In this document: one piece after another, positions 20,878 to 40,228 of the stretch
How the letters are laid out: every line of letters starts with the position of its first letter
Position numbering within the stretch: the stretch's first letter is position 1
The notes under the pieces: model-generated
What the model was told of the DNA's origin: nothing
Databases searched by the model: none
Seen by the model: the letters and a program-made list of their open reading frames with translations, nothing else
Position numbers and translations under genes: made by a program
Origin: Trypanosoma brucei
Taxonomy: Eukaryota
Assembly (NCBI GenBank): GCA_000002445.1
Contig: CM000208.1
Location: forward strand, 2,272,001 to 2,336,000
DNA length: 64,000 nucleotides
Reading direction: 5' to 3'

Positions 20878-22353
20878 ATGATATGCCGCACATCTTTTCT
20901 GCGTAAACCCAAGGTAGTTGTTGTTGGCACGGGATGGGCGGGCTGCTACTTTGTGAGAGACACAAAACCACAATTAGCAGAACTCCACGTTTTGTCCACA
21001 CGTAACCATCACGTACTGACACCCCTTCTCCCGCAAACAACCACCGGTACGCTGGAGTTCCGCTCTATATGTGAGCCCATCACTCGCATTCAACCGGCAC
21101 TCGCACACCTTCCGAACCGTTTCTCACGTTGCTTCGTGTATGACATCAACTTCGAACAAAAGCGGGTTGATTGCATTAGCGTAGACAACACCAGCGTCGG
21201 GCCACACGCCTTAGTTAACACATTTGATGTTCAGTACGACAAACTAGTGTTGGCGCATGGTGCACAGCCAAACACGTTTAATGTTCCCGGCGCTGTGGAG
21301 AGGGCGTGTTTCCTTCGGGAGGTAAATGAAGCACGTACCATCCGCAAACGACTTGTGCAGAATATCATGACGGCGAATTTGCCCGTAACAAGTGTCGAGG
21401 AGAAGAAACGCCTTCTGCACACCGTAGTTGTGGGAGGTGGGCCCACGGGCGTTGAATTCTCCGCAGATTTGGCCGAGTTCCTGCGCGACGACGTGAAGAA
21501 CATCAACCCCGAGCTCGTTCAATTCTGCAAAGTGACAGTACTTGAGGCCGGAGAGGTTTTCAGTACATTTGATTTACGCGTGAGGGAATGGGGCAAGCGG
21601 CGGTTAGATGCCCTCGGCGTGCGAATCGTGAAGGGTAATGTTGTGGCTGTGCAAGAGAAGGAGGTGATCACAAAGAGTGGTGAAGTGTTCTCTACCGGCT
21701 TGGTGGTGTGGAGCACAGGTGTCGGACCCTCACCACTAACAAAAGAATTAAAGGTGGACCGAACGCGACAGGGGCGTATTTCCGTCGATGAGCATTTACG
21801 GGTACTGCGCGACGGCGTCCCAATTCCCGATGTGTATGCAATTGGGGACTGTGCAACCAATGAAAGCAACCCGCTACCTACTTTAGCTGCTGTCGCTTCT
21901 CGTCAAGGCGTGTATCTGGCAAAAAAAATCAACGCGGAATTAGCTGGTAAGCCATTCGCCACGCCGTTCAAATATGAGAGCCTCGGAAGCATGGTGAGTC
22001 TTGGTACTTCCAGCGCTGTTGTGGAATTAAATGGGCCACGCAAACTTGATTTTGTTGGGCTTAAGGCACTCTTCTTCTGGCGTAGTGCATACCTCAGCAT
22101 TGTGGGTTCGTGGCGTAATAGGCTTTATGTCATTGTCAACTGGCTTGGAAGCGCAATTTTTGGCCGGGATTTGACACTCATTAACGACTACAATGACGAG
22201 CGGACGTGGCTCTCTCTGGCGTCAGAGGGGGCGGCGCGCGAGAAAGTGAGCAGAATGAACAAAGTTAAAACCGATGGCGACGGCAGTAATGGAAATGAAA
22301 CAACAGCCCGTTCAAAGGTGGACTTACCCGCGACAAAGAAACAGAACGAGTAG
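20878..22353 (+). CDS. NDH2: type II (alternative, rotenone-insensitive) NADH dehydrogenase
   Basis: Two dinucleotide-binding folds are present: KPKVVVVGTGWAGC and TVVVGGGPTGVEF. The 491-aa length matches my recollection of TbNDH2. Confidence 0.8.
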   Translation: MICRTSFLRKPKVVVVGTGWAGCYFVRDTKPQLAELHVLSTRNHHVLTPLLPQTTTGTLEFRSICEPITRIQPALAHLPNRFSRCFVYDINFEQKRVDCISVDNTSVGPHALVNTFDVQYDKLVLAHGAQPNTFNVPGAVERACFLREVNEARTIRKRLVQNIMTANLPVTSVEEKKRLLHTVVVGGGPTGVEFSADLAEFLRDDVKNINPELVQFCKVTVLEAGEVFSTFDLRVREWGKRRLDALGVRIVKGNVVAVQEKEVITKSGEVFSTGLVVWSTGVGPSPLTKELKVDRTRQGRISVDEHLRVLRDGVPIPDVYAIGDCATNESNPLPTLAAVASRQGVYLAKKINAELAGKPFATPFKYESLGSMVSLGTSSAVVELNGPRKLDFVGLKALFFWRSAYLSIVGSWRNRLYVIVNWLGSAIFGRDLTLINDYNDERTWLSLASEGAAREKVSRMNKVKTDGDGSNGNETTARSKVDLPATKKQNE

Positions 22354-26745: not shown

Positions 26746-27096
26746 CGTTGCCATGCTAGGCAGGTACCAACCTTGTTCTCCCTGTGGTGATGCACATTTA
26801 TAATGGACTTTTTTTTTTAGTTGTTGTTGTTACATTGTCGGTACATGCGGAAGAAGGATTGTTAGTGAATTTCTTTGTGTGTTTATTTCTCACAGGCTGT
26901 TGCGGCAAAAGTATTAAATTCCTTCTATTGTGTGAACCTACAGGACAAAGGAGGAACAGGGATGGTTTGCTTTTAAAACGATGCCACCATTTTTCTTCTA
27001 TGTTGTGCACATATGCGTTGTTGAATAAAATGAAGTAAAGAGCCCGGCCGAGTGGAGTGGCGCGGTGTGGGAATACATAAAAATAATAATAAGAAC

Positions 27097-27849
27097 ATGA
27101 GCACCTTCGCGGTACTAAATGGTGTCATAATATTAGCGGTATTCGTTGTAACCGCTGCTTGCTTAGATGATCAAAAGCCTATAAGGGAGGGAGGGAAAGC
27201 GCTGAGTGGAGAGGCTGCAAAACATCTCTGCCGCATCAAACAGATAAGTGAATTGCTCGGAAGCCGTGCAGAGTTTGAGCTAATTAGGGACGGATCCAAG
27301 TTTACCAGCGAGCGACAAGTCCTTCGTAATGTCCAGGATAAAATAACGGAAGGGGTCAAAGGCATAAATGAGTTGTTCGGTAGGCACTGTCGGCGAGTGT
27401 CCTTGGGAATTGAAGGAGGTGGGAGCGACATGCTTTCCAACCCAAATTGCGAAGATAGCGATAAAAAAGAGGGAACGGGGGAAGCCACTGACCAAGGCAG
27501 TGGGACGCTGTCTGAAGAGGGTATTATCCAGTGCGAACACGGTAATTTTCTGCGTGATTTCCTAATTCGGGGTGCCCTCGAGGCATACAGAAGTCAAATG
27601 GAGCAGTGGGAAAAGAAAAAACCGACAGAAGGAAACAAAACGAGTACGGAGGTTAAAGGGGATGAATCGTCAAAAAAACACGAGGACCAATGCCAGCAGA
27701 TGGGATACAGCGTTCATGGGGCCTGCACCGTATCAGAGCAAAAATGGAGGCAACATCTGGAAGAGGCTGTGAAGCTCATGGAAGGCATAATTGTAGTGAA
27801 AAAGGAAGACGTTTGTGGGGTATCAAAAGAAGGGGAGACGCAAAAATAA
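27097..27849 (+). CDS. hypothetical secreted protein (about 250 aa, cleavable signal peptide, 8 Cys, highly charged)
   Basis: MSTFAVLNGVIILAVFVVTAACLDDQ looks like a signal peptide. A poly-Y tract (about 26976-26998) followed by AG lies upstream. It is the only sizeable ATG ORF in an 8.7-kb gene-poor stretch. No family assigned. Confidence 0.4.
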   Translation: MSTFAVLNGVIILAVFVVTAACLDDQKPIREGGKALSGEAAKHLCRIKQISELLGSRAEFELIRDGSKFTSERQVLRNVQDKITEGVKGINELFGRHCRRVSLGIEGGGSDMLSNPNCEDSDKKEGTGEATDQGSGTLSEEGIIQCEHGNFLRDFLIRGALEAYRSQMEQWEKKKPTEGNKTSTEVKGDESSKKHEDQCQQMGYSVHGACTVSEQKWRQHLEEAVKLMEGIIVVKKEDVCGVSKEGETQK

Positions 27850-30800: not shown

Positions 30801-31110
30801 TTCTACGTCTCAGATGGAAGTTGTGGCAAAACGGGGAAGTAAAAGACGGGGGATTGTAAGAGGTGGATGAAAATGGGCAAAAAGAAAACTCGCTAAGCAA
30901 TTCGCGCACAGCTGTAAGCCACGTGAGGGATGCATGACCTGGGAGGGTTACATTTAAATCTTCGAGGATAAATAGCCCGTATGGGCGGTAGAAGAAAGTA
31001 GGGATATACTGACATCTAAAAGCAGGACTACGACTGTTAGCGTCACCAACCTCCGGGACGCTATGTATGTGAGGGAGATTGATCGGTAGTGGAGAGTGTA
31101 CGGGTTTGTT

Positions 31111-31440
31111 ATGAAGCGAAAAATTATGAGCCTTGACTACGAAACTCGGTATTTTCATTATCCTTATGGAAAGGTGATCAAAAGGGGTGCCATACTACAT
31201 TTTGCGGGGTCGAGTAACGTGTGGAAGGAGACAATACCCAGGTACCTCAGCGAGATGAGTTGGTTCAAAGCTCTAAAAAATTCTTTCACAGAACGAGAGG
31301 CTTACAGGCGGCTGCTAGAAACAACTTCCGTTGAAATACACTCTGCAAGGGGTGCCTTTAGGTATGTAAAGCTCGGTACTGTGTGCCCCATCTCTAACGT
31401 TTCAAACCCAAATTGGTTATCTGGGGAGTTGAGAAAGTAA
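31111..31440 (+). pseudogene. truncated leading copy of the glycosyltransferase-like array gene; only the last about 105 codons are present
   Basis: From about 31127 to 31440 the sequence is identical to the 3' end of the full copies (KIMSLDYETRYFHYPYGKVIKRG...NPNWLSGELRK*). The identical downstream spacer follows. The sequence upstream of 31127 is unique, so this is the array boundary. Confidence 0.65.
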
Positions 31441-31536
31441 TGCATACGGTCAATCTGCATTGAAGATTACACCCGTAATCCGCGGCACATCGCATCGCAC
31501 TCTCTTATCCCTTACATACTCATTGCAGAAACTGAC

Positions 31537-31555
31537 GTTTTATTTTTGTTTTCAG
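31537..31555 (+). promoter_or_regulatory. poly-pyrimidine tract plus AG, a putative trans-splice acceptor 3 nt upstream of the array-gene ATG; repeated identically at 32828-32846 and 34119-34137
   Basis: gttttatttttgttttcag directly precedes gaaATG in copies 1-3. Copy 4 has gttttatttcatttttag before aaagATG. Confidence 0.5.
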
Positions 31556-31558
31556 GAA

Positions 31559-32731
31559 ATGTTGAGGAGGATCAAGGGTATTTCAACTCGTAAAAAGGGA
31601 GGGAGATTATATTTAATAGTGATTGCGCTGCTGATAGTGGTCGGGGTTATGGCGACAATGGATATAAGAAGTAGTCATACGGAAACCGGTCACGGGTTGA
31701 GAAAAGAAAATTTCCACAGTAGTTATGCACCAAGGATTAGTTATGTTGTGGTGCAAAACAGACCCTCCCCAGGGTGGTGTAGAATGCTCTTAAGCTCTAT
31801 ACTCACCAATGTGTCGGTGCTTACGTTGGGTGTGGAGGGTAAGTACGGGCATGTAAGAAGATGGACCTGGATATATAATTATGTATGGCGGGGAGAAGCG
31901 CGTGAGAGCGATGTGATTGTGATATTCGATGGGGGAGACACTTTTTTCACAGAAACACATTTAAGAGAAGATGCCATGAAGTATTTTCTGGCAACAACGC
32001 CTAGCACGCCTGAAAAGTTCAATGAAACAGAAATCATACAGGGAGCTATGACACCTCCAATGCTCTTCACGGCAGAGGTGTATTGCGCTATGCCACAGAT
32101 TGATATAATGGTAAAGCATCCAAGGAATACACCGCCTGGGAAGTGCAGGAGGTTCTACGAGCGAGCATTTGAGGCGTCCACCCGAACAGGGACAAGGGCG
32201 ATTCTGAGGGCAAATGAATCTGGAAGGTCGTATCTCAATGGCGGAGGAGTAATTGCAAGAGTATGGGCTCTGAGAGAGGCTCTGGAGGCATTCTTCCGCT
32301 TAAAAAAGCAAAGTTTTTTTTGGGGCTGTGATCAAACTATGTGGGCATTTGTGTTTTTGTGGAGTGTAACTAGACCAAGTAACGTGAAACCGAAGTTGTT
32401 TCTGAGAAGGGGAATTATGAGCCTTGACTACGAAACTCGGTATTTTCATTATCCTTATGGAAAGGTGATCAAAAGGGGTGCCATACTACATTTTGCGGGG
32501 TCGAGTAACGTGTGGAAGGAGACAATACCCAGGTACCTCAGCGAGATGAGTTGGTTCAAAGCTCTAAAAAATTCTTTCACAGAACGAGAGGCTTACAGGC
32601 GGCTGCTAGAAACAACTTCCGTTGAAATACACTCTGCAAGGGGTGCCTTTAGGTATGTAAAGCTCGGTACTGTGTGCCCCATCTCTAACGTTTCAAACCC
32701 AAATTGGTTATCTGGGGAGTTGAGAAAGTAA
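31559..32731 (+). CDS. type-II membrane protein with a PLOD/LH3-N-terminal-like GT-A glycosyltransferase domain (array copy 1, 390 aa)
   Basis: Short basic cytosolic tail (MLRRIKGISTRKKGGR) and a TM segment (LYLIVIALLIVVGVMATM) precede a luminal domain. Several blocks align with the lysyl-hydroxylase N-terminal GT domain: YVVVQNRP...LTLG (VITVAT...RTLG), DVIVIFDGGDTFF (MIIMFVDSYDVI), MLFTAEVYC (LLFSAESFC), YLNGGGVIARV (FLNSGGFIGFA), CDQTMWAFVFL (DDQLFYTRLYL). ORF-track start is TTG at 31460; the first ATG is at 31559. Confidence 0.8.
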   Translation: MLRRIKGISTRKKGGRLYLIVIALLIVVGVMATMDIRSSHTETGHGLRKENFHSSYAPRISYVVVQNRPSPGWCRMLLSSILTNVSVLTLGVEGKYGHVRRWTWIYNYVWRGEARESDVIVIFDGGDTFFTETHLREDAMKYFLATTPSTPEKFNETEIIQGAMTPPMLFTAEVYCAMPQIDIMVKHPRNTPPGKCRRFYERAFEASTRTGTRAILRANESGRSYLNGGGVIARVWALREALEAFFRLKKQSFFWGCDQTMWAFVFLWSVTRPSNVKPKLFLRRGIMSLDYETRYFHYPYGKVIKRGAILHFAGSSNVWKETIPRYLSEMSWFKALKNSFTEREAYRRLLETTSVEIHSARGAFRYVKLGTVCPISNVSNPNWLSGELRK

Positions 32732-32849
32732 TGCATACGGTCAATCTGCATTGAAGATTACACCCGTAATCCGCGGCACATCGCATCGCACTCTCTTATC
32801 CCTTACATACTCATTGCAGAAACTGACGTTTTATTTTTGTTTTCAGGAA

Positions 32850-34022
32850 ATGTTGAGGAGGATCAAGGGTATTTCAACTCGTAAAAAGGGAGGGAGATTA
32901 TATTTAATAGTGATTGCGCTGCTGATAGTGGTCGGGGTTATGGCGACAATGGATATAAGAAGTAGTCATACGGAAACCGGTCACGGGTTGAGAAAAGAAA
33001 ATTTCCACAGTAGTTATGCACCAAGGATTAGTTATGTTGTGGTGCAAAACAGACCCTCCCCAGGGTGGTGTAGAATGCTCTTAAGCTCTATACTCACCAA
33101 TGTGTCGGTGGTTACGTTGGGTATGGGAGGATGGTATGGTAACGTAAGAAGATGGACCTGGATATATAATTATGTATGGCGGGGAGAAGCGCGTGAGAGC
33201 GATGTGATTGTGATATTCGATGGGGGAGACACTTTTTTCACAGAAACACATTTAAGAGAAGATGCCATGAAGTATTTTCTGGCAACAACGCCTAGCACGC
33301 CTGAAAAGTTCAATGAAACAGAAATCATACAGGGAGCTATGACACCTCCAATGCTCTTCACGGCAGAGGTGTATTGCGCTATGCCAGATATTGATATAAT
33401 GGTAAAGCATCCAAGGAATACACCGCCTGGGAAGTGCAGGAGGTTCTACGAGCGAGCATTTGAGGCGTCCACCCGAACAGGGACAAGGGCGATTCTGAGG
33501 ATGAATGAATCCGGCAGGTCGTATCTCAATGGCGGAGGAGTAATTGCAAGAGTGTGGGCTCTGAGAGAGGCTCTGGAGGCATTCTTCCGCTTAAAAAAGC
33601 AGTGGTTTATATGGCGTTGTGATCAAACTATGTGGGCATTTGTGTTTTTGTGGAGTGTAACTAGACCAAGTAACGTGAAACCGAAGTTGTTTCTGAGAAG
33701 GGGAATTATGAGCCTTGACTACGAAACTCGGTATTTTCATTATCCTTATGGAAAGGTGATCAAAAGGGGTGCCATACTACATTTTGCGGGGTCGAGTAAC
33801 GTGTGGAAGGAGACAATACCCAGGTACCTCAGCGAGATGAGTTGGTTCAAAGCTCTAAAAAATTCTTTCACAGAACGAGAGGCTTACAGGCGGCTGCTAG
33901 AAACAACTTCCGTTGAAATACACTCTGCAAGGGGTGCCTTTAGGTATGTAAAGCTCGGTACTGTGTGCCCCATCTCTAACGTTTCAAACCCAAATTGGTT
34001 ATCTGGGGAGTTGAGAAAGTAA
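32850..34022 (+). CDS. glycosyltransferase-like array copy 2 (390 aa), about 97% identical to copy 1 at the protein level
   Basis: Same architecture as copy 1. Differences from copy 1 are confined to short patches (LTLGVEGKYGH vs VTLGMGGWYGN, PQIDIM vs PDIDIM, RANESG vs RMNESG, KKQSFFWGCDQ vs KKQWFIWRCDQ). Confidence 0.8.
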   Translation: MLRRIKGISTRKKGGRLYLIVIALLIVVGVMATMDIRSSHTETGHGLRKENFHSSYAPRISYVVVQNRPSPGWCRMLLSSILTNVSVVTLGMGGWYGNVRRWTWIYNYVWRGEARESDVIVIFDGGDTFFTETHLREDAMKYFLATTPSTPEKFNETEIIQGAMTPPMLFTAEVYCAMPDIDIMVKHPRNTPPGKCRRFYERAFEASTRTGTRAILRMNESGRSYLNGGGVIARVWALREALEAFFRLKKQWFIWRCDQTMWAFVFLWSVTRPSNVKPKLFLRRGIMSLDYETRYFHYPYGKVIKRGAILHFAGSSNVWKETIPRYLSEMSWFKALKNSFTEREAYRRLLETTSVEIHSARGAFRYVKLGTVCPISNVSNPNWLSGELRK

Positions 34023-34140
34023 TGCATACGGTCAATCTGCATTGAAGATTACACCCGTAATCCGCGGCACATCGCATCGCACTCTCTTATCCCTTACATA
34101 CTCATTGCAGAAACTGACGTTTTATTTTTGTTTTCAGGAA

Positions 34141-35319
34141 ATGGCGAAGGGAGGGAAAAGGGTAGTTGCTCGTAAAAAGGGAGGGAGATTATATTTAATA
34201 GTGATTGCGCTGCTGATAGTGGTCGGGGTTATGGCGACAATGGATATAAGAAGTAGCCATACGGAAACCGGTCACGGGTTGAGAAAAGAAAATTTCCACA
34301 GTAATTATGCACCAAGGGTTAGTTATGTTGTGGTGCAAACGAGACGCTCCCCAGGGTGGTGTAGAATGCTCTTAAGCTCTATACTCACCAACGTAAGCGT
34401 CACAACAGTTGGAATGGGCGCAGTGTACATTCATGCGTGGAGATGGACCTGGATATATAATTATATGCTACGGGAGAGGATGCATGAAGACGATGTGATT
34501 GTGATATTCGATGGGGGAGACACTTTTTTCACAGAAACACATTTAAGAGAAGATGCCATGAAGTATTTTCTGGCAACAACGCCTAGCACGCCTGAAAAGT
34601 TCAATGAAACAGAAATCTTACAGGGAGCTATGACACCTCCAATGCTCTTCACGGCAGAAAAAGGCTGCTACGCGCCGCAAATGTATATCATGACGGGTGT
34701 CGATCCCAGTAAAATACCTCAACGGGAAAGATGTTTAAATGTGTATGAAGAGGCATTTGAGGCGTCTACTCTGGCAGGGACGCAGGCTATTTTGCGGAAG
34801 CACGAATCTGGAAGGTGGCATCTCAATGGCGGAGGAGTAATTGCAAGAGTGTGGGCTCTGAGAGAGGCCCTAGATGTTTTCTTCGCGCTCAAAAGGCAGA
34901 GTTACAAATGGTGGTGTGATCAAAGTATGTGGTCATTGATTTTAGCGTGGAGTGTCAGCAGACCAAAGCACGTGAAACCGGTGTTGCTTCTGAGAAGGGG
35001 AATTATGAGCCTTGACTACGAAACTCGGTATTTTCATTATCCTCATACAACGCCGATTAGGACAGGAGTGATCCTACATTTTCCAATGCCGATCGTTTTG
35101 TGGAAAAACAAAATGGCAAAATACGTTGGTGAGACGACATGGTTTAGGGCTTTGCGAGATTCCGAAGGAAGACAGAAGACAGTGGCAGATTACTTAAAGA
35201 CCGTTTATGTGGATATTCGCTTCGTCTTTGGGTTCAAAAAGTGGAGGAAGTTTAGCAGCGTGTGCAGCATAAGCGATGTTGTGAACCCAAACTGGCTAAG
35301 TGGTGTGTTGAGAAAGTAA
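34141..35319 (+). CDS. glycosyltransferase-like array copy 3 (392 aa), a mosaic with an identical 5' end and a diverged middle and 3' end
   Basis: The spacer and the 5'UTR-proximal sequence are identical to copies 1 and 2 (ATG at 34141). The catalytic core is conserved (VIVIFDGGDTFF, LFTAE, LNGGGVIARVWALREAL, WWCDQSMW) and the C-terminal 80 aa are diverged. Confidence 0.75.
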   Translation: MAKGGKRVVARKKGGRLYLIVIALLIVVGVMATMDIRSSHTETGHGLRKENFHSNYAPRVSYVVVQTRRSPGWCRMLLSSILTNVSVTTVGMGAVYIHAWRWTWIYNYMLRERMHEDDVIVIFDGGDTFFTETHLREDAMKYFLATTPSTPEKFNETEILQGAMTPPMLFTAEKGCYAPQMYIMTGVDPSKIPQRERCLNVYEEAFEASTLAGTQAILRKHESGRWHLNGGGVIARVWALREALDVFFALKRQSYKWWCDQSMWSLILAWSVSRPKHVKPVLLLRRGIMSLDYETRYFHYPHTTPIRTGVILHFPMPIVLWKNKMAKYVGETTWFRALRDSEGRQKTVADYLKTVYVDIRFVFGFKKWRKFSSVCSISDVVNPNWLSGVLRK

Positions 35320-35443
35320 CACCAGCGCTTGACCTGTACCATAATATCATGCCCCCTATACGCTGCGTGTCGGCACGCCATTCACCAGGATGTATGAATA
35401 CACTGTGTGTGGAAATCCGTGTTTTATTTCATTTTTAGAAAAG

Positions 35444-36625
35444 ATGAAAGGAACTAAGAAATTTTATGGTAAAAGAAGGAAGAGAACGTGTGTAATAGGT
35501 GCGGCACTTCTGCTTATCTTTTTACTTTGTCGCATGCTGTTTATCCGGACGGAAGAAGTGGAAGACACCACGTTTGAGGAGGGTTGTTGGGAGCGTGAGA
35601 TGCGCAGCGAAGGAGTGGGAGATGTAAAGGTGCGTTACGTCGTGATACAGACGAAGCCCTCCCCAGGTTGGTGTAGAATGCTTGTAAGCTCTCTCGTTGT
35701 TGGTATTGATGTAATTACAATAGGACTCGATGGCGTGTACCATCACACCTCGAGGCCACATTGGTTGCTGAACTACATAGAAAGTGCGGGGTTAAGTGAT
35801 GACGATGTGATTGTGACATTTGATGGTGCGGACACAGTATTTGTGAACAAGCATAACCTCCAGTGCGCTATTAGCAAGTTCATATCAACGACACCGAGCA
35901 AACCAGAAAATTTCGATGAGGAAAAAATACTGAAAGGCGTCCAAAAGTCTCCACTCCTGTTTACTGCTGAAAGGGGGTGTTTTGCCTCTCAACTAAGCGT
36001 TTTGTTTTCAATAAGAGGCAGAAAACACGAAAAGAGGTGTGAGCGGTTCTATAGGGGGGAGATTTCAAAGGCCAAAGCAACCGGCGCGGAACGGGTGATG
36101 CGGATGCCAAAGAGTGGGCGGGCGTATCTTAATGCTGGTGGGGTGATCGGGAGGGTGTGGGCATTTAAGGAAGCAATAGGAGGATTTTCAAAACTTAGAG
36201 AAAAGAGTGACAGATGGTGGTGTGATCAGACAATTTGGACCATTCTCTTTGCCTGGAGCGTCAATCAACAGGACACTGGGGGTAAAGCAGTGCACTTGAG
36301 AAAGGGTCTGATTTCTCTAGACTACGATGCGAGGTATTTTCTCATTCCTTCGTACACTTCCCCAATTCGAAGCATGATATTGCATTTTTCCGGGCTTATT
36401 AGAGACTGGAAGTGGTGGTTTCCAGGTGTTGTGAGGAGGTTGGTATGGATACAGAGAATGAGAGATGATGTGTATCAGAGAGACAGTAGGAGTTTGCTAA
36501 CTAAGACCAGCTTAACGATCTACGGCGCTAAAGGAGAAAAATATATTCGTAAGTTTGCCGATGTTTGCAACGTTGATGAGGCCGTGGACTACACGTGGCT
36601 GTCGACGGTCCGAAGTAAGCATTAG
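35444..36625 (+). CDS. glycosyltransferase-like array copy 4 (about 393 aa), the most diverged paralogue
   Basis: The start is chosen by analogy with the other copies: the ATG right after poly-Y/AG gives MKGTKKFYGKRRKRT plus a TM segment (CVIGAALLLIFLLC). The ORF track begins at an upstream ATG at 35390. Family blocks are conserved: YVVIQTKPSPGWCRMLVSS, VIVTFDGADTVF, LLFTAERGC, YLNAGGVIGRVWAF, WWCDQTIW. Confidence 0.7.
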   Translation: MKGTKKFYGKRRKRTCVIGAALLLIFLLCRMLFIRTEEVEDTTFEEGCWEREMRSEGVGDVKVRYVVIQTKPSPGWCRMLVSSLVVGIDVITIGLDGVYHHTSRPHWLLNYIESAGLSDDDVIVTFDGADTVFVNKHNLQCAISKFISTTPSKPENFDEEKILKGVQKSPLLFTAERGCFASQLSVLFSIRGRKHEKRCERFYRGEISKAKATGAERVMRMPKSGRAYLNAGGVIGRVWAFKEAIGGFSKLREKSDRWWCDQTIWTILFAWSVNQQDTGGKAVHLRKGLISLDYDARYFLIPSYTSPIRSMILHFSGLIRDWKWWFPGVVRRLVWIQRMRDDVYQRDSRSLLTKTSLTIYGAKGEKYIRKFADVCNVDEAVDYTWLSTVRSKH

Positions 36626-38432
36626 ATACTACAGGTCAGCGTGAGACCGGCTGTTTCTACGGATGTGTGTACACAGGATTTTATACGTTGTGGGTTGCCG
36701 TCCACTCCGCGGCAAATCACCTTAGGTGCCACTGTTGACATCAAAAGGTTTTTCGAAGACAGTCTTTAAAAATTTATGTAAATTCGCTCCCTGCAATCGC
36801 GAGTTGGCGTTGTTTTGTAAACACGTGGATCCGCGTAAACGAAAAAAAAACAGCGATCCCAGTGTCGTTGGGATCTTCTACTGATGCCTGCAACGATGTG
36901 GCCACCGAAAAATAAAGGTAACCGTTTTTTTTTTTTAGCACCGTACTCGTTCGCTATTTACGGATGAAAATGAGGGGGAGTAGTGGGTATGTAGATTTCG
37001 AATGCCGTATCGTGGTGTTATTGGTGACTTTCTGTAAAACAAGCAGTTCAAAGGGGGAGTGTGATTATTATCGTCAAACTTTTAGATGAGAGCTTGCATT
37101 CAAGGCGCGTGTTGTGGCAGAAAACACGGGCTGCTCCCTGAGGTAGTGCAAGCCGTGTGCTCGTATAACGCCATCCGGTGCAGTGGTGGTTGGTGTGGTG
37201 GTGTTCCGCGACACCGACATGTCGGGAGGTGTCTGTGAGATTGAGGGGTTTATGTGGGAATATGATATCGTAGCAATGTTTTATGGCGCAGACACGTCTT
37301 TAGCGCAGGCCGAGTTTGTGGAGGAAGAGACACACCTTTGCGAATAGCTCACCAAAAATTAAAATGACAAACACATGGCGAGAGTCATTTTGCTTGGAAC
37401 AATGTTCCCCTCAATAATTTTCCGATCGAGAGGGGATGTTACCTCCTACGGATGTATGTCATGCTAGTGGTGTAGAACAAAAGTTCACAGTGGTACGAAA
37501 GTGTGTGAATATACGAGACTGGATGAGTGGGAAGGAGCTTATGGAGGGCTCGTCACGGTTGGGCTGCAGAATGCATGCCCAAACGGCATCGGTAAAAGTG
37601 GAAGAGTTTAAACGCTCAGAGAACCCTTTAAATCACTTTGTCAACGCCAGGATGGAGAACTTCAACTGATGGTGCGGCTACTATATAAGCGCTGGCGTTT
37701 CCGTACAATGTGACAGAGTACGTATTCGGGGAGGCGTTTACTCCCTCTCTACGGGGACCCATGTCCCTTAACTACAACTTCCAATGGTTTGGCAACGCCA
37801 CACTCAAAACAAACCTCACTTCCACTATTGCCCATTCGGGGTGAGATAATTGGGAGGGTGAGCTTGCCGATGACTGGGAGACTGTCATTGTGGTACCGAC
37901 AACTTGAACCACCGGAGAGGTGACAGTGAACGAAGGAGCATTCACTTTCGGAGCCTTTAGTGGCACAACGTAAGGAGAGAAAGTGCCTTCGAACAACCTC
38001 GGTGACGTGCGTCGAATCAATAGGACGGTGAAATATAAATGGCTAATGAGACCATTTAAGTGAAGTTAGCTGACGCCAGCACCATGTGTTTGCATTTATT
38101 TCACCGTGGCGTGCCTCGTATTTCTCCGCAATGAAGTTGGGTAGACATCTTCACCATTGTTGAGGACGTGGTATGCATCTATTGAATAGTGGATCTTGTC
38201 CCTAAAAACTGCCGAAACGTGGACGAAGAGCTCTCATAAAAAGGATTTCGATTTTACGCTGCTGTGCGTGAGTCAGGATAAAGAGGTGGCGTGATTTTAA
38301 TTGGTTCCATTGGAAATGCCTGTGATTTAGAGGAGTTCTTAGTGAAATCTCGAGCGCGCACAATAGTGATAAAACGAAAAAGAGGGATGTGAGGGGGAGG
38401 GCGTGCCGGTCATATAAAGGATATTCCAAACT

Positions 38433-38648
38433 ATGAGCTTCATGGGAAAGACGCTTGTTTTGTGCGCGCTATTTTTCCGAACAAGTAGCAGGGGTACAAT
38501 CTCGCTTCAGGTTGCGCTGCAGCAGATTGATGTCCATGATATAACTACCTCTCCCGTGGATAAGAGCCGTTCCATTACTCGAAAATTAGGTAGGGTAGAG
38601 AGCGCGGGGTGGCGACCAGAAGTTTTGATTCGGAAGAAATTATTGTAG
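38433..38648 (+). CDS. small ORF (71 aa) with a hydrophobic N-terminus; speculative
   Basis: ATG ORF, MSFMGKTLVLCALFFRTSS... No other support. Confidence 0.12.
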   Translation: MSFMGKTLVLCALFFRTSSRGTISLQVALQQIDVHDITTSPVDKSRSITRKLGRVESAGWRPEVLIRKKLL

Positions 38649-39625
38649 ATTATGTTTGTCGCCGTGTGTTTTCCTCTTACCTTATCAGTTTTCAACTACA
38701 GTGATGGCATTCCATCGGGAGTGGTCCGACTAATCTTGGAACCACCCTCGGGAGCGAGTCGCTCTGTGGGCAATTTGGGAGAAGACAGGACTTGTGATAC
38801 CGAGATGTTAAAATAAATTTAAAGTAGTTGTATAACGTCTAAGAATTCAAAGGTGTATACAGTTGAATGTTTAATCCTGGGCGTGCTCATGAAGTAAATT
38901 GGTTACTTGGGGGTTATGGAAGCGAAATTAGTATGTTTTTTGTGGGCTTGTTGTATTCATGATCATCTAGAGAAAAGCATTGACGTACGAAAAGCTGATT
39001 ACAGTGGATTGAGGGAACGGAAGGCCAGTTGCCCATTTGAGAGGGAACGCCAGCGGGAGTCTTCCAAGAGACGGTTAGCTCTCACTATATGCCAGTTTGT
39101 TGCCGATTGTCTGTGAAATTTATAATTCAAGTGGAAGACATCACTCTTCTCAGATCATATCTGAGTTTAAAAGAATTGGGATACCCCTGTTGCTCAAATA
39201 TTCCACCATAAAAAACGAAAGATCTTCACTTGGTAGCGTCGGATTAACTGTGCGTCCGGTTTCTCATATTCAGAACATCAATTGGAACTCCCACTCTATA
39301 GTGTGCCACGTCAGTGTTCTTCAATTTCCAAAGAGAGGGAGATTTTGTGACGGCAGCTTCATACCGCAGCGGGGGTCTTGGTGTGTATGCAGAGATTGCT
39401 TACTTGATGTGCACCACTCAGTTGCAACATCCTTGGCGTAGTTAACGGACAAAATTTAAAAATTTTATTGCTTTGAAAAAAAAATGAATTTGTGTTAAAT
39501 GATATCTTAACATTTAAATGCTTTTCTTAGCAAATGATTGCAAATAACTTTGCGTTAAATGGAATGATCTTGTTTTTCATGCTGTCTTGTGAAGGGACGT
39601 TAAATTTGCAACAGCTAGGATAATA

Positions 39626-40228
39626 ATGAGAACGAATAGTCTCAACATCGGAGCAGTTTTGGGGGTGATGTTGGTAGTGGTTGACATTGAAGCACAGGGA
39701 ACAGGTGCCGTGTCCGCGTCGCATTGCACTTTCAACCAGCGCTCCGGTGTTTCTAAGAAGGAAGAGCTAGGGGACGCTATGAAGGTAGATAATGTCTTTC
39801 CAGGAGGCCCTAAAAAAGACGTTTTGGTGTCGTGTGCCAATAAGAGTCGTCAGACAGCGGCAGGGATTTTCGTTCACTGGTGCTGCAGGTGTGAATCAGA
39901 AACCAGTGGCGACAGGGGCAATGTTTGCGAATTTTTTGGAGATTGTGAATGTGATGATATCTATTCAACCTCAAACGTCCCTAAATGCGTTAAAGGAGAC
40001 CACATGTGGAGGGACTCTTCTACTGCGCTGCGGGCGGTTCTTCAGGATGTCAAGGGGAGAGACGCTTGTAACATCTCAACACCTAATGGAAAAGAGATAT
40101 TGATGAAGCTTACGAGAGAAGAGCTCACATCTAATATAGCACCTCAGGATTCGTCCTCCAAAATATTCTTGTTTCTGCTGGCTGCGCTGCTCATGCAGGA
40201 CGAATCTGTGGCACAAACCTCCAATTAG
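39626..40228 (+). CDS. small Cys-rich putative surface protein (200 aa) with an N-terminal signal peptide and a C-terminal hydrophobic segment (GPI-signal-like or short TM anchor)
   Basis: MRTNSLNIGAVLGVMLVVVDIEAQG looks like a signal peptide. There are about 12 Cys, including CCRCESETSGDRGNVCEFFGDCECDD. The C-terminus is ...SSSKIFLFLLAALLMQDESVAQTSN. A poly-Y tract followed by AG lies upstream, at about 39560-39615. Confidence 0.4.
   Translation: MRTNSLNIGAVLGVMLVVVDIEAQGTGAVSASHCTFNQRSGVSKKEELGDAMKVDNVFPGGPKKDVLVSCANKSRQTAAGIFVHWCCRCESETSGDRGNVCEFFGDCECDDIYSTSNVPKCVKGDHMWRDSSTALRAVLQDVKGRDACNISTPNGKEILMKLTREELTSNIAPQDSSSKIFLFLLAALLMQDESVAQTSN

What the first reader, a model, noticed from the sequence alone, without database searches (positions are those of the whole stretch)
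39626..40228. Small Cys-rich ORF with signal peptide and C-terminal hydrophobic tail, candidate GPI-anchored or type-I surface protein
The 200-aa ORF has N-terminal MRTNSLNIGAVLGVMLVVVDIEAQG, about 12 cysteines including a CC.C...C...C.C cluster, and a C-terminus SSSKIFLFLLAALLMQDESVAQTSN. The 10 hydrophilic residues after the hydrophobic stretch argue for a short TM anchor rather than a classical GPI signal, but either would place it on the surface. It lies 3 kb downstream of the glycosyltransferase array in otherwise ORF-less DNA, so it is a plausible substrate or companion.
Basis: partly seen in the sequence, partly recalled or inferred. Interest (0 to 1): 0.55.

Follow-up and report, generated by a model that had tools for sequence, protein, structure and literature searches.

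The report
Orphan trypanosome secretory protein gene
The ORF is a real, already annotated but uncharacterised Trypanosoma brucei-only gene (Tb927.10.9510) that is transcribed and translated. It probably encodes a small disulfide-rich secretory glycoprotein, and whether or how that protein is held in a membrane is still unknown.

Summary
The 200-aa ORF at 39626..40228 (+) exists as described, except that it has 10 cysteines, not about 12. The window is T. brucei TREU927 chromosome 10 and the ORF is Tb927.10.9510 (old ID Tb10.6k15.0880), annotated as a hypothetical, T. brucei spp.-specific protein.

- **Coding evidence:** ORF length alone is not significant (17% of simulations reach 200 aa). Codon usage, codon-position composition and both hydrophobic ends are far beyond chance (0 of 1245 simulated ORFs).
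- **Conservation:** the ORF is intact in four Trypanozoon genomes.
- **Expression:** published ribosome profiling shows footprints in both life stages. Its mRNA is about 3-4 fold higher in bloodstream than in procyclic forms.
- **Homology:** there is no homologue outside Trypanozoon, no Pfam or PDB match and no usable AF2 model.
- **C-terminus:** the hydrophobic run is only 11 residues with an acidic tail. This fits a type I transmembrane anchor poorly. It resembles a GPI signal except for the 10 polar residues that follow.
- **Surface evidence:** the protein is absent from a bloodstream-form surface proteome that detects its neighbour Tb927.10.9450.
- **Neighbouring array:** the upstream array is ESAG3-related and has a GT-A fold, so the glycosyltransferase label holds. 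Nothing links it functionally to this ORF.

Overall this is ordinary and of modest interest.

The parts
39568..39594 (+). Interrupted polypyrimidine tract (CTTGTTTTTCATGCTGTCTTGTG) followed by an AG at 39593-39594. This is a putative spliced-leader acceptor and would give a 5' UTR of about 31 nt.
   Evidence: Read directly from the sequence. Its role as a trans-splice site is inferred, not shown.
39626..40228 (+). Coding sequence of Tb927.10.9510 (Tb10.6k15.0880; UniProt Q38A24): 200 codons plus a TAG stop.
   Evidence: ORF. Product identical to P0002 = EAN78346.1. Chromosome coordinates Tb927_10_v5:2350182-2350784 match the window offset of 2310556 derived. Coding statistics. Ribosome footprints.
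39626..39694 (+). Predicted cleavable signal peptide, residues 1-23 (or 1-25). It has an n-region MRTNS, an h-region LNIGAVLGVMLVVV and a c-region DIEA|QG.
   Evidence: Kyte-Doolittle 12-residue maximum of 3.0, reached by 0 of 1245 simulated ORFs. The -3/-1 rule was checked by eye. SignalP was not run.
39695..40150 (+). Predicted lumenal/extracellular domain, residues 24-175. It holds all 10 cysteines (an even number, so up to 5 disulfides), including the cluster C86-C87-x-C89-(11)-C101-(5)-C107-x-C109. It has two N-glycosylation sequons: N72-K-S (39839-39847) and N149-I-S (40070-40078).
   Evidence: There is no Pfam, PDB or other homologue. The AF2 single-sequence model has pLDDT 35.7 and is uninformative.
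40133..40156 (+). Candidate GPI omega region. Option one is N170 (omega), I171, A172 (omega+2), followed by the polar spacer PQDSSSK. Option two is D175 or S176 with a small omega+2.
   Evidence: Rule-based reading of the sequence against the general architecture of GPI signals (own knowledge). No predictor was run.
40163..40195 (+). C-terminal hydrophobic segment IFLFLLAALLM, residues 180-190 (11 residues).
   Evidence: Kyte-Doolittle 11-residue mean of 3.15, reached by 0 of 1245 simulated ORFs. It is the longest hydrophobic run apart from the signal peptide.
40196..40228 (+). Polar, net-acidic C-terminal extension QDESVAQTSN (residues 191-200) plus the TAG stop. The first codon, CAG (Q191), is one transition away from TAG.
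   Evidence: Sequence. The extension is identical in protein sequence in all four Trypanozoon genomes. There is one synonymous difference at 40207.

Best explanation
This is Tb927.10.9510, a bona fide orphan protein-coding gene restricted to Trypanozoon. It sits in a T. brucei-specific island between two conserved genes (NDH2 and an oxidoreductase). The island also holds an ISG-like gene and an ESAG3-related glycosyltransferase array.

The gene is transcribed within the + strand polycistron. Its mRNA is about 3-4 fold more abundant in bloodstream than in procyclic forms and rises when RBP10 is expressed. The mRNA is translated in both stages.

Inferred fate of the protein:
- It enters the ER through a cleavable signal peptide (cleavage after A23 or G25).
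- It folds into a domain of about 150 residues with up to five disulfides and up to two N-glycans.
- It carries a C-terminal element that looks like a GPI-attachment signal: omega N170 or D175/S176, a polar spacer and an 11-residue hydrophobic stretch. This element is extended by 10 polar residues.

The most likely outcome is a low-abundance GPI-anchored or otherwise weakly membrane-associated glycoprotein of the secretory/endocytic system or cell surface, not a type I transmembrane protein.

Shown here: the gene is coding, is translated, shows stage bias in mRNA and is lineage-restricted. Inferred only: signal-peptide cleavage, disulfides, glycosylation, GPI addition and location.
For: **Identity**
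-.

**Coding signature**
- Codon log-likelihood is +0.084 bits/codon, about 4 SD above 1245 simulated ORFs. All other frames are negative.
- Codon-position composition matches the window's real genes, and the score exceeds their leave-one-out mean of 0.064.

**Protein features**
- Both hydrophobic ends are beyond all 1245 simulated ORFs.
- All 10 cysteines lie between them.

**Conservation**
- The ORF is intact and free of indels in T. b. gambiense, a second T. brucei-group assembly (GCA_003543875.1) and T. equiperdum. It has 2, 1 and 0 substitutions, against roughly 5-6 differences expected per 600 bp from the flanks. Its bin is the lowest or joint-lowest.

**Translation**
- Translational efficiency is 2.20 in bloodstream forms (rank 1349 of 7782) and 2.11 in procyclic forms (rank 1692). 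The gene is among those with at least 5 reads in all four libraries (Vasquez et al. 2014, PMC3973304).

**mRNA**
- RPM is 33/24 in bloodstream forms and 7/7 in procyclics. After RBP10 induction it is 20/21 and then 25/42.
- log2 fold changes are 1.41, 2.32 and 1.74, with adjusted P from 1e-3 to 1e-9 (Mugo and Clayton 2017, PMC5568443). The assignment of columns in that table was inferred from its legend.

**Poor fit to a TM anchor**
-.
Against: - No homologue exists anywhere outside Trypanozoon. Long-term purifying selection therefore cannot be shown.
- Divergence among the four available genomes is only 0.2-1%, so the ORF being intact is weak evidence.
- ORF length itself is within chance.
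- No protein-level evidence was found.
  - The gene is absent from the Gadelha 2015 bloodstream surface-proteome tables, which list its neighbours 9430, 9440 and 9450.
  - It was not found in the held TrypTag or Dejung supplement text (those files are incomplete).
- Pseudogenes also receive translational-efficiency values in the ribosome-profiling table.
- The 10 polar residues after the hydrophobic stretch are atypical for GPI signals, which normally end in the hydrophobic run (own knowledge). GPI addition may therefore fail.
- AF2 gives no confident fold.
Confidence: 0.6

Rival explanations
1. The protein is a soluble secreted or ER/endosome-lumenal protein. The signal peptide works, but the C-terminal element is neither a GPI signal nor a TM anchor. 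The protein is then secreted, or retained and degraded. The short hydrophobic helix would serve in oligomerisation or as a degradation/retention determinant.
For: - The hydrophobic run is only 11 residues and is followed by an acidic tail.
- The protein is absent from the surface-labelled proteome.
- From memory, Bohme and Cross 2002 (J Cell Sci) reported that VSG lacking a functional GPI signal is retained in the ER and degraded rather than reaching the surface.
Against: - The segment is as hydrophobic as a signal-peptide core. It is preceded by a textbook small-residue/polar-spacer arrangement (N-I-A ... PQDSSSK). That combination is hard to explain if it has no membrane-related role.
- No ER-retrieval motif such as MDDL or KQDL is present at the C-terminus (sequence).
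Confidence: 0.2
2. The protein is a type I transmembrane surface protein with a short TM helix and a 10-residue cytoplasmic tail.
For: - Hydrophilic residues follow the hydrophobic stretch.
- T. brucei invariant surface glycoproteins such as ISG65/75 are type I proteins (own knowledge), and an ISG-like gene lies in the same island.
Against: - Eleven hydrophobic residues give a helix of about 16 Angstrom, which cannot span a bilayer.
- The summed insertion free energy for 19-21-residue windows is +8 to +10.5 kcal/mol.
- K179 is on the lumenal side and the tail is net -2, contrary to the positive-inside rule.
- There is no Pfam ISG match.
Confidence: 0.07
3. The ORF is a non-functional or very young (de novo or decaying) ORF in lineage-specific DNA. 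It is transcribed only because everything in a trypanosome polycistron is transcribed, and it is translated incidentally.
For: - It is an orphan with no homologue.
- It lies in a T. brucei-specific island with no counterpart in the syntenic T. cruzi or T. vivax regions.
- ORF length is within chance.
- Neighbouring ORFs are annotated 'hypothetical protein, unlikely'.
- There is no proteomic detection and no confident fold.
Against: - Codon usage and codon-position composition are those of real genes and are frame-specific, unlike the neighbouring chance ORFs.
- A signal peptide, an even number of cysteines confined to the ectodomain and a C-terminal anchor-like element occur together, which is not seen in simulated ORFs.
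- Translational efficiency is in the top ~20%.
- mRNA level is stage-regulated.
- The ORF has fewer substitutions than its flanks and no indels.
Confidence: 0.13

Closest known systems
GPI-anchored trypanosome surface proteins and their C-terminal signals (VSG, procyclins)
   Same: - N-terminal signal peptide.
- Cysteine-containing, N-glycosylated ectodomain.
- Small omega and omega+2 residues, a polar spacer and a short hydrophobic stretch. From my own knowledge, VSG signals have hydrophobic tails of only 8-15 residues.
   Different: - Known signals end with the hydrophobic residues. Here 10 polar, net-acidic residues follow.
- There is no sequence similarity to any VSG, procyclin or other family.
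- GPI addition is untested.
Invariant surface glycoproteins and ESPs of bloodstream-form T. brucei (ISG65/75; Gadelha et al. 2015, PMC4587319)
   Same: - Lineage-restricted, low-abundance secretory proteins with mRNA enriched in bloodstream forms.
- The same genomic island carries an ISG65-75-like gene, Tb927.10.9450. That protein is strongly enriched in the surface proteome.
   Different: - There is no PF11727 match.
- The protein is not detected in that surface proteome.
- It is much smaller, at about 150 residues mature.
- It lacks a proper TM domain with a lysine-bearing cytoplasmic tail.
Acceptor loops of the ESAG3 O-glucosyltransferase (bioRxiv 10.64898/2026.01.27.701950)
   Same: - ESAG3 glucosylates Ser/Thr in short Cys-flanked, Gly/Ser-rich loops of class B VSGs. 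Examples are CTGSASEGLC, CNGGTSSAAC and CDGIGGSNGGKC.
- This ORF has Cys-flanked Ser/Thr loops: C89-ESETSGDRGNV-C101 and C109-DDIYSTSNVPK-C121. It also lies 3 kb from four ESAG3-related genes.
   Different: - The resemblance is only in loop type. No motif is shared, and any Cys-rich protein has such loops.
- The neighbouring genes are GRESAG3 paralogues of unknown specificity, not expression-site ESAG3.
- No glycoproteomic data exist for this protein.
Taxonomically restricted (orphan) genes
   Same: - No homologue outside a very young clade.
- Short, with no predicted fold.
- Located in lineage-specific DNA.
   Different: - Unlike many candidate de novo ORFs, it has gene-like codon usage, targeting signals at both ends and ribosome footprints.

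Membership tests
GPI-anchored protein (C-terminal GPI-attachment signal) | N-terminal ER signal peptide | tested here: met
   It has a basic n-region, a 14-residue h-region and A/G at -1 with I/A at -3. Its hydrophobicity exceeds all 1245 simulated ORFs. The test is rule-based only; SignalP was not available.
GPI-anchored protein (C-terminal GPI-attachment signal) | Small omega and omega+2 residues followed by a polar spacer | tested here: met
   N170-I-A172 is followed by PQDSSSK. The alternative is D175-S-S177 with a very short spacer (sequence).
GPI-anchored protein (C-terminal GPI-attachment signal) | Hydrophobic stretch of about 8-20 residues that runs to, or nearly to, the C-terminus | tested here: not met
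   The hydrophobic stretch is present (11 residues, 180-190). However, 10 polar residues (QDESVAQTSN) follow it.
GPI-anchored protein (C-terminal GPI-attachment signal) | Covalent GPI on the mature protein | not testable with these tools
   This needs PI-PLC/GPI-PLC release, CRD epitope detection, or ethanolamine/myristate labelling.
Type I single-pass transmembrane protein | Hydrophobic helix of about 18-23 residues | tested here: not met
   The run is 11 residues. The best 19-residue window sums to +8.2 kcal/mol on the Hessa scale. The Kyte-Doolittle 19-residue maximum at the C-terminus is below 1.47, against the usual threshold of 1.6.
Type I single-pass transmembrane protein | Positive-inside charge distribution | tested here: not met
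   K179 precedes the hydrophobic run. The tail contains D and E and no K or R.
ISG65/75 family (PF11727) | Match to the family profile | tested here: not met
   There are no Pfam families even at E = 10. The neighbour at 27052-27849 does match, with E = 1.1e-10.
VSG / ESAG families | Detectable sequence homology | tested here: not met
   Word-indexed and exhaustive HMMER searches return only the Trypanozoon orthologue cluster. There is no Pfam hit.
Protein-coding gene of T. brucei | Frame-specific coding statistics | tested here: met
Protein-coding gene of T. brucei | Ribosome occupancy | tested here: met
   Published translational efficiencies are 2.20 (BF) and 2.11 (PF). Footprint periodicity was not inspected.
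Protein-coding gene of T. brucei | Protein detected | tested here: inconclusive
   It is not in the Gadelha 2015 tables. The other proteome supplements are held only in part.

The most novel reading that the evidence does not exclude
Tb927.10.9510 could be a T. brucei-specific invariant glycoprotein of the bloodstream or metacyclic stage. Under this reading its Cys-flanked Ser/Thr loops (for example C89-ESETSGDRGNV-C101) are O-glycosylated by the adjacent ESAG3-related GT-A glycosyltransferases. That would make it the first non-VSG substrate or partner of this enzyme family. Its extended GPI-like C-terminus would be a new variant of anchoring or retention signal.
Probability: 0.05. Interest if true: 0.6.

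Novelty: already known. Interest (0 to 1): 0.22.

Why it matters
Taken as it stands, this is one of many uncharacterised lineage-specific hypothetical genes of T. brucei, with the typical look of a secretory or surface protein. It has been in the annotation since 2005 and appears in public expression datasets.

It would matter modestly if the protein proved to be an invariant antigen that is enriched in bloodstream forms and found only in Trypanozoon. That would give it some diagnostic or vaccine interest.

It would also matter if its unusual C-terminus showed how trypanosomes handle a GPI-like signal with a polar extension.

The surrounding island is an ISG-like gene, a GRESAG3 array and this orphan, inserted between conserved housekeeping genes. 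It is a tidy example of surface-related gene innovation in a chromosome core.

Tried and rejected
- **Homology:** Pfam at E up to 10, the 5.8-billion-protein word-indexed search, exhaustive phmmer over 1.84 billion representatives and PDB sequences. All returned nothing beyond the Trypanozoon orthologues.
- **Structure:** single-sequence AF2 gave pLDDT 35.7. No fold search was attempted on it.
- **Paralogues:** tblastn of the ORF against the rest of the window, to test for a relation to the ISG-like gene, found nothing.
- **Synteny:**
  - The T. cruzi locus L006 shows NDH2, then a tyrosine phosphatase, then the oxidoreductase, all within 10 kb.
  - The T. vivax locus L004 has different upstream genes.
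  - tblastn and tblastx found no trace of the ORF or of any shared intergenic coding remnant.
  - The T. congolense orthologue of the anchor gene is not on record, so the closest outgroup could not be examined.
- **Rfam:** no RNA family in the window.
- **Literature:**
  - No paper mentions the gene ID, old ID or accessions in its main text.
  - TrypTag and Dejung supplements held no entry, but the stored files are incomplete.
  - A search for the column header of the Mugo and Clayton DESeq sheet failed. Column identities were therefore inferred from the legend and from agreement with the RPM values.
- **Error corrected:** an early assumption that a second ISG-like gene lay at about 29.7 kb was my own coordinate error. 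There is only one, at 27097-27849.
- **Cysteine content:** 'Cys-rich' was rejected as a statistically distinctive feature.

Full report
**1. Observation**

The + strand carries an ATG-to-TAG ORF of 200 codons at 39626..40228.

It has 10 cysteines, not about 12, at residues 34, 70, 86, 87, 89, 101, 107, 109, 121 and 148. It also has two N-x-S sequons, at N72 and N149.

It starts 3.0 kb after the last gene of the upstream tandem array. It is the longest ATG-ORF in the gene-poor stretch 36626-48375.

**2. Is it more than chance?**

Length is not. In 1000 second-order Markov simulations of that 11.75-kb stretch, the longest ATG-ORF averaged 168 +/- 37 aa. 17% reached 200 aa.

Content is.
- I built a codon model from 13 solid genes of the window and compared it with the local non-coding background. 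The ORF scores +0.084 bits/codon.
- 1245 simulated ORFs of at least 120 aa average -0.084 +/- 0.042 and none reaches the observed value.
- The ORF's five other frames are all negative. The other real chance ORFs nearby (179, 124, 123 and 114 aa) are negative too.
- In leave-one-out tests the 13 genes themselves average 0.064.
- The ORF's base composition by codon position (G1 0.36, C1 0.14) matches theirs (G1 0.35). It differs from the chance ORFs, which have G1 0.23-0.27 and C1 0.30-0.36.
- No simulated ORF matches the hydrophobicity of either the N-terminal or the C-terminal segment.
- Cysteine content (5%) is not distinctive against random ORFs, since 25% reach it. However, all ten cysteines lie between the two hydrophobic ends.

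**3. Identity**

The product is identical to EAN78346.1 / Q38A24, named 'hypothetical protein Tb10.6k15.0880' in T. b. brucei TREU927. The same sequence occurs in T. equiperdum. It differs by K53R from the T. b. gambiense DAL972 'T. brucei spp.-specific protein' CBH16067.1.

Tb927.10.9520 is given as Tb927_10_v5.1:2352676-2353047 in an ORFeome supplement. That is the 123-aa ORF at window 42120-42491, which fixes the window offset at 2310556.

The offset predicts chromosome 10 coordinates 2350182-2350784 for this ORF. Vasquez et al. 2014 list exactly that location for Tb927.10.9510, 'hypothetical protein'.

**4. Relatives**

The word-indexed search of 5.8 billion proteins and the exhaustive phmmer over 1.84 billion representatives both return only the Trypanozoon cluster. 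Pfam gives nothing at E up to 10, and PDB sequences give nothing. Single-sequence AF2 gives pLDDT 35.7.

The ORF is intact and free of indels in three further assemblies: T. b. gambiense (L001), GCA_003543875.1 (L002) and T. equiperdum (L003).
- It has 2, 1 and 0 substitutions: one K53R change and one synonymous change.
- Its flanks average roughly 5-6 differences per 600 bp, including frequent indels.
- Its bin is the lowest or joint-lowest of about 20.
- This agrees with constraint, but it is weak evidence at 0.2-1% divergence.

In T. cruzi, NDH2 and the oxidoreductase that flank this region lie within about 9.3 kb, with a phosphatase gene between them. In T. brucei they are 26 kb apart. T. 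vivax has different upstream genes. Neither species shows any trace of the ORF. T. congolense could not be retrieved.

**5. Expression (published data)**

[quoted passage not shown] Its translational efficiency is 2.20 in bloodstream forms (rank 1349) and 2.11 in procyclics (rank 1692) (PMC3973304).

*RNA-seq.*
- RPM is 33 and 24 in bloodstream forms and 7 and 7 in procyclics.
- One and two days after RBP10 induction in procyclics it is 20/21 and 25/42.
- log2 changes are 1.41, 2.32 and 1.74, all significant (PMC5568443).
- The three following column pairs (0.40, 0.58, 0.98; adjusted P above 0.2) are probably the tsetse midgut, proventriculus and salivary-gland comparisons. I infer this from the table legend.

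*Protein level.* The gene is absent from the Gadelha et al. 2015 bloodstream surface-proteome tables. Those tables list 9430, 9440 and 9450 and then jump to 9570. No paper mentions the gene in its main text.

**6. Anatomy and likely mechanism**

*N-terminus.* It has a basic n-region (R2), a 14-residue h-region and a c-region DIEAQG. Cleavage at IEA|QG or AQG|TG is allowed by the -3/-1 rule. This is too short for a signal anchor, so I infer a cleavable signal peptide.

*C-terminus.* The hydrophobic run IFLFLLAALLM is only 11 residues.
- The Hessa-scale sum (values from memory) is -3.9 kcal/mol for the run itself. It is +8.2 to +10.5 kcal/mol for 19-21-residue windows.
- K179 lies on the lumenal side and the tail QDESVAQTSN is net -2.
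- A bilayer-spanning type I anchor is therefore unlikely.

*GPI-like layout.* The arrangement N170-I-A172 / PQDSSSK / 11 hydrophobic residues follows the general omega / spacer / hydrophobic-tail plan of GPI signals. From my own knowledge, VSG signals have hydrophobic tails as short as 8 residues. The 10-residue polar extension breaks the rule that the signal ends in the hydrophobic stretch.

*An untested idea.* The first codon of the extension (CAG) is one transition from TAG. An ancestral stop there would have given a canonical signal.

*Best reading.* This is a translated secretory glycoprotein with a GPI-like C-terminus of uncertain efficiency. The mode of anchoring and the location remain open.

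**7. Context**

The upstream array consists of a partial copy at 31096-31440 and four full copies up to 36625.
- It is ESAG3-related. [quoted passage not shown]
- It has no Pfam or PDB sequence match.
- An AF2 model built from an 8-sequence alignment has pLDDT 73.5 and pTM 0.74. It is most similar to the GT domain of human LH3/PLOD3 (Foldseek E = 3.6e-7) and to mimivirus R699.
- It has an invariant D145-x-x-D148 motif.
- This agrees with a 2026 preprint. The preprint shows that expression-site ESAG3 is an LH3-like GT-A O-glucosyltransferase. The enzyme acts on Ser/Thr in Cys-flanked VSG loops. The preprint proposes that GRESAG3 paralogues may extend the glycan.

The 'substrate or companion' idea has only two points in its favour: adjacency, and the generic presence of Cys-flanked Ser/Thr loops in the ORF. 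I keep it as a low-probability novel reading.

**8. Verdict**

The gene is already annotated and present in public datasets, but it is uncharacterised. Interest is low to modest.

Noticed in passing
window 31096-36625 (+): This is a tandem array of ESAG3-related (GRESAG3) genes: a C-terminal fragment plus four full copies of 411-425 aa. They are type II-like, with an N-terminal helix.

The predicted GT-A fold is closest to the human LH3/PLOD3 GT domain, and a DxxD motif (D145/D148) is invariant.

Copy number differs between assemblies. The window has two more copies than L001 and L002.
   Followed up: yes
window 27097-27849 (+): This is a small (250 aa) ISG65-75-like gene with a signal peptide but no C-terminal TM (Pfam PF11727, E = 1.1e-10). 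It is Tb927.10.9450.

It was abundantly detected in the Gadelha 2015 bloodstream surface proteome: 84 spectra, 13 peptides, 50% coverage and about 36-fold enrichment.
   Followed up: partly
window 22354-48375: The interval between NDH2 (20878-22353) and the zinc-binding oxidoreductase (48376-49380) is 26 kb in T. brucei. In T. cruzi it is about 9.3 kb and holds a tyrosine-phosphatase gene that has no remnant here.

The T. brucei interval is a lineage-specific island of surface/secretory genes: the ISG-like gene, the GRESAG3 array and Tb927.10.9510.
   Followed up: partly
window 42000-48000 (+): This 6-kb stretch has higher G+C (0.50-0.54) and a pyrimidine-rich + strand (GC skew about -0.09, AT skew -0.14 to -0.20).

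It holds only short ORFs with non-coding codon statistics. One of them is annotated Tb927.10.9520 'hypothetical protein, unlikely', and its length varies between strains (123, 139 and 147 aa).

The nature of this stretch was not determined. It could be a long UTR or a degenerate element.
   Followed up: no
window 40196-40198: The codon immediately after the C-terminal hydrophobic stretch is CAG (Q191), one transition from TAG. A stop at this position would leave a canonical GPI-type C-terminus (...SSSKIFLFLLAALLM).

All four Trypanozoon genomes have CAG, so this remains an idea without evidence.
   Followed up: no
window 39792-40103 (+): A 103-aa ATG-ORF lies in the +1 frame, wholly inside the 200-aa ORF. 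Its codon score is near zero or negative (+0.011 and -0.026), so it is most likely a chance overlap.
   Followed up: partly
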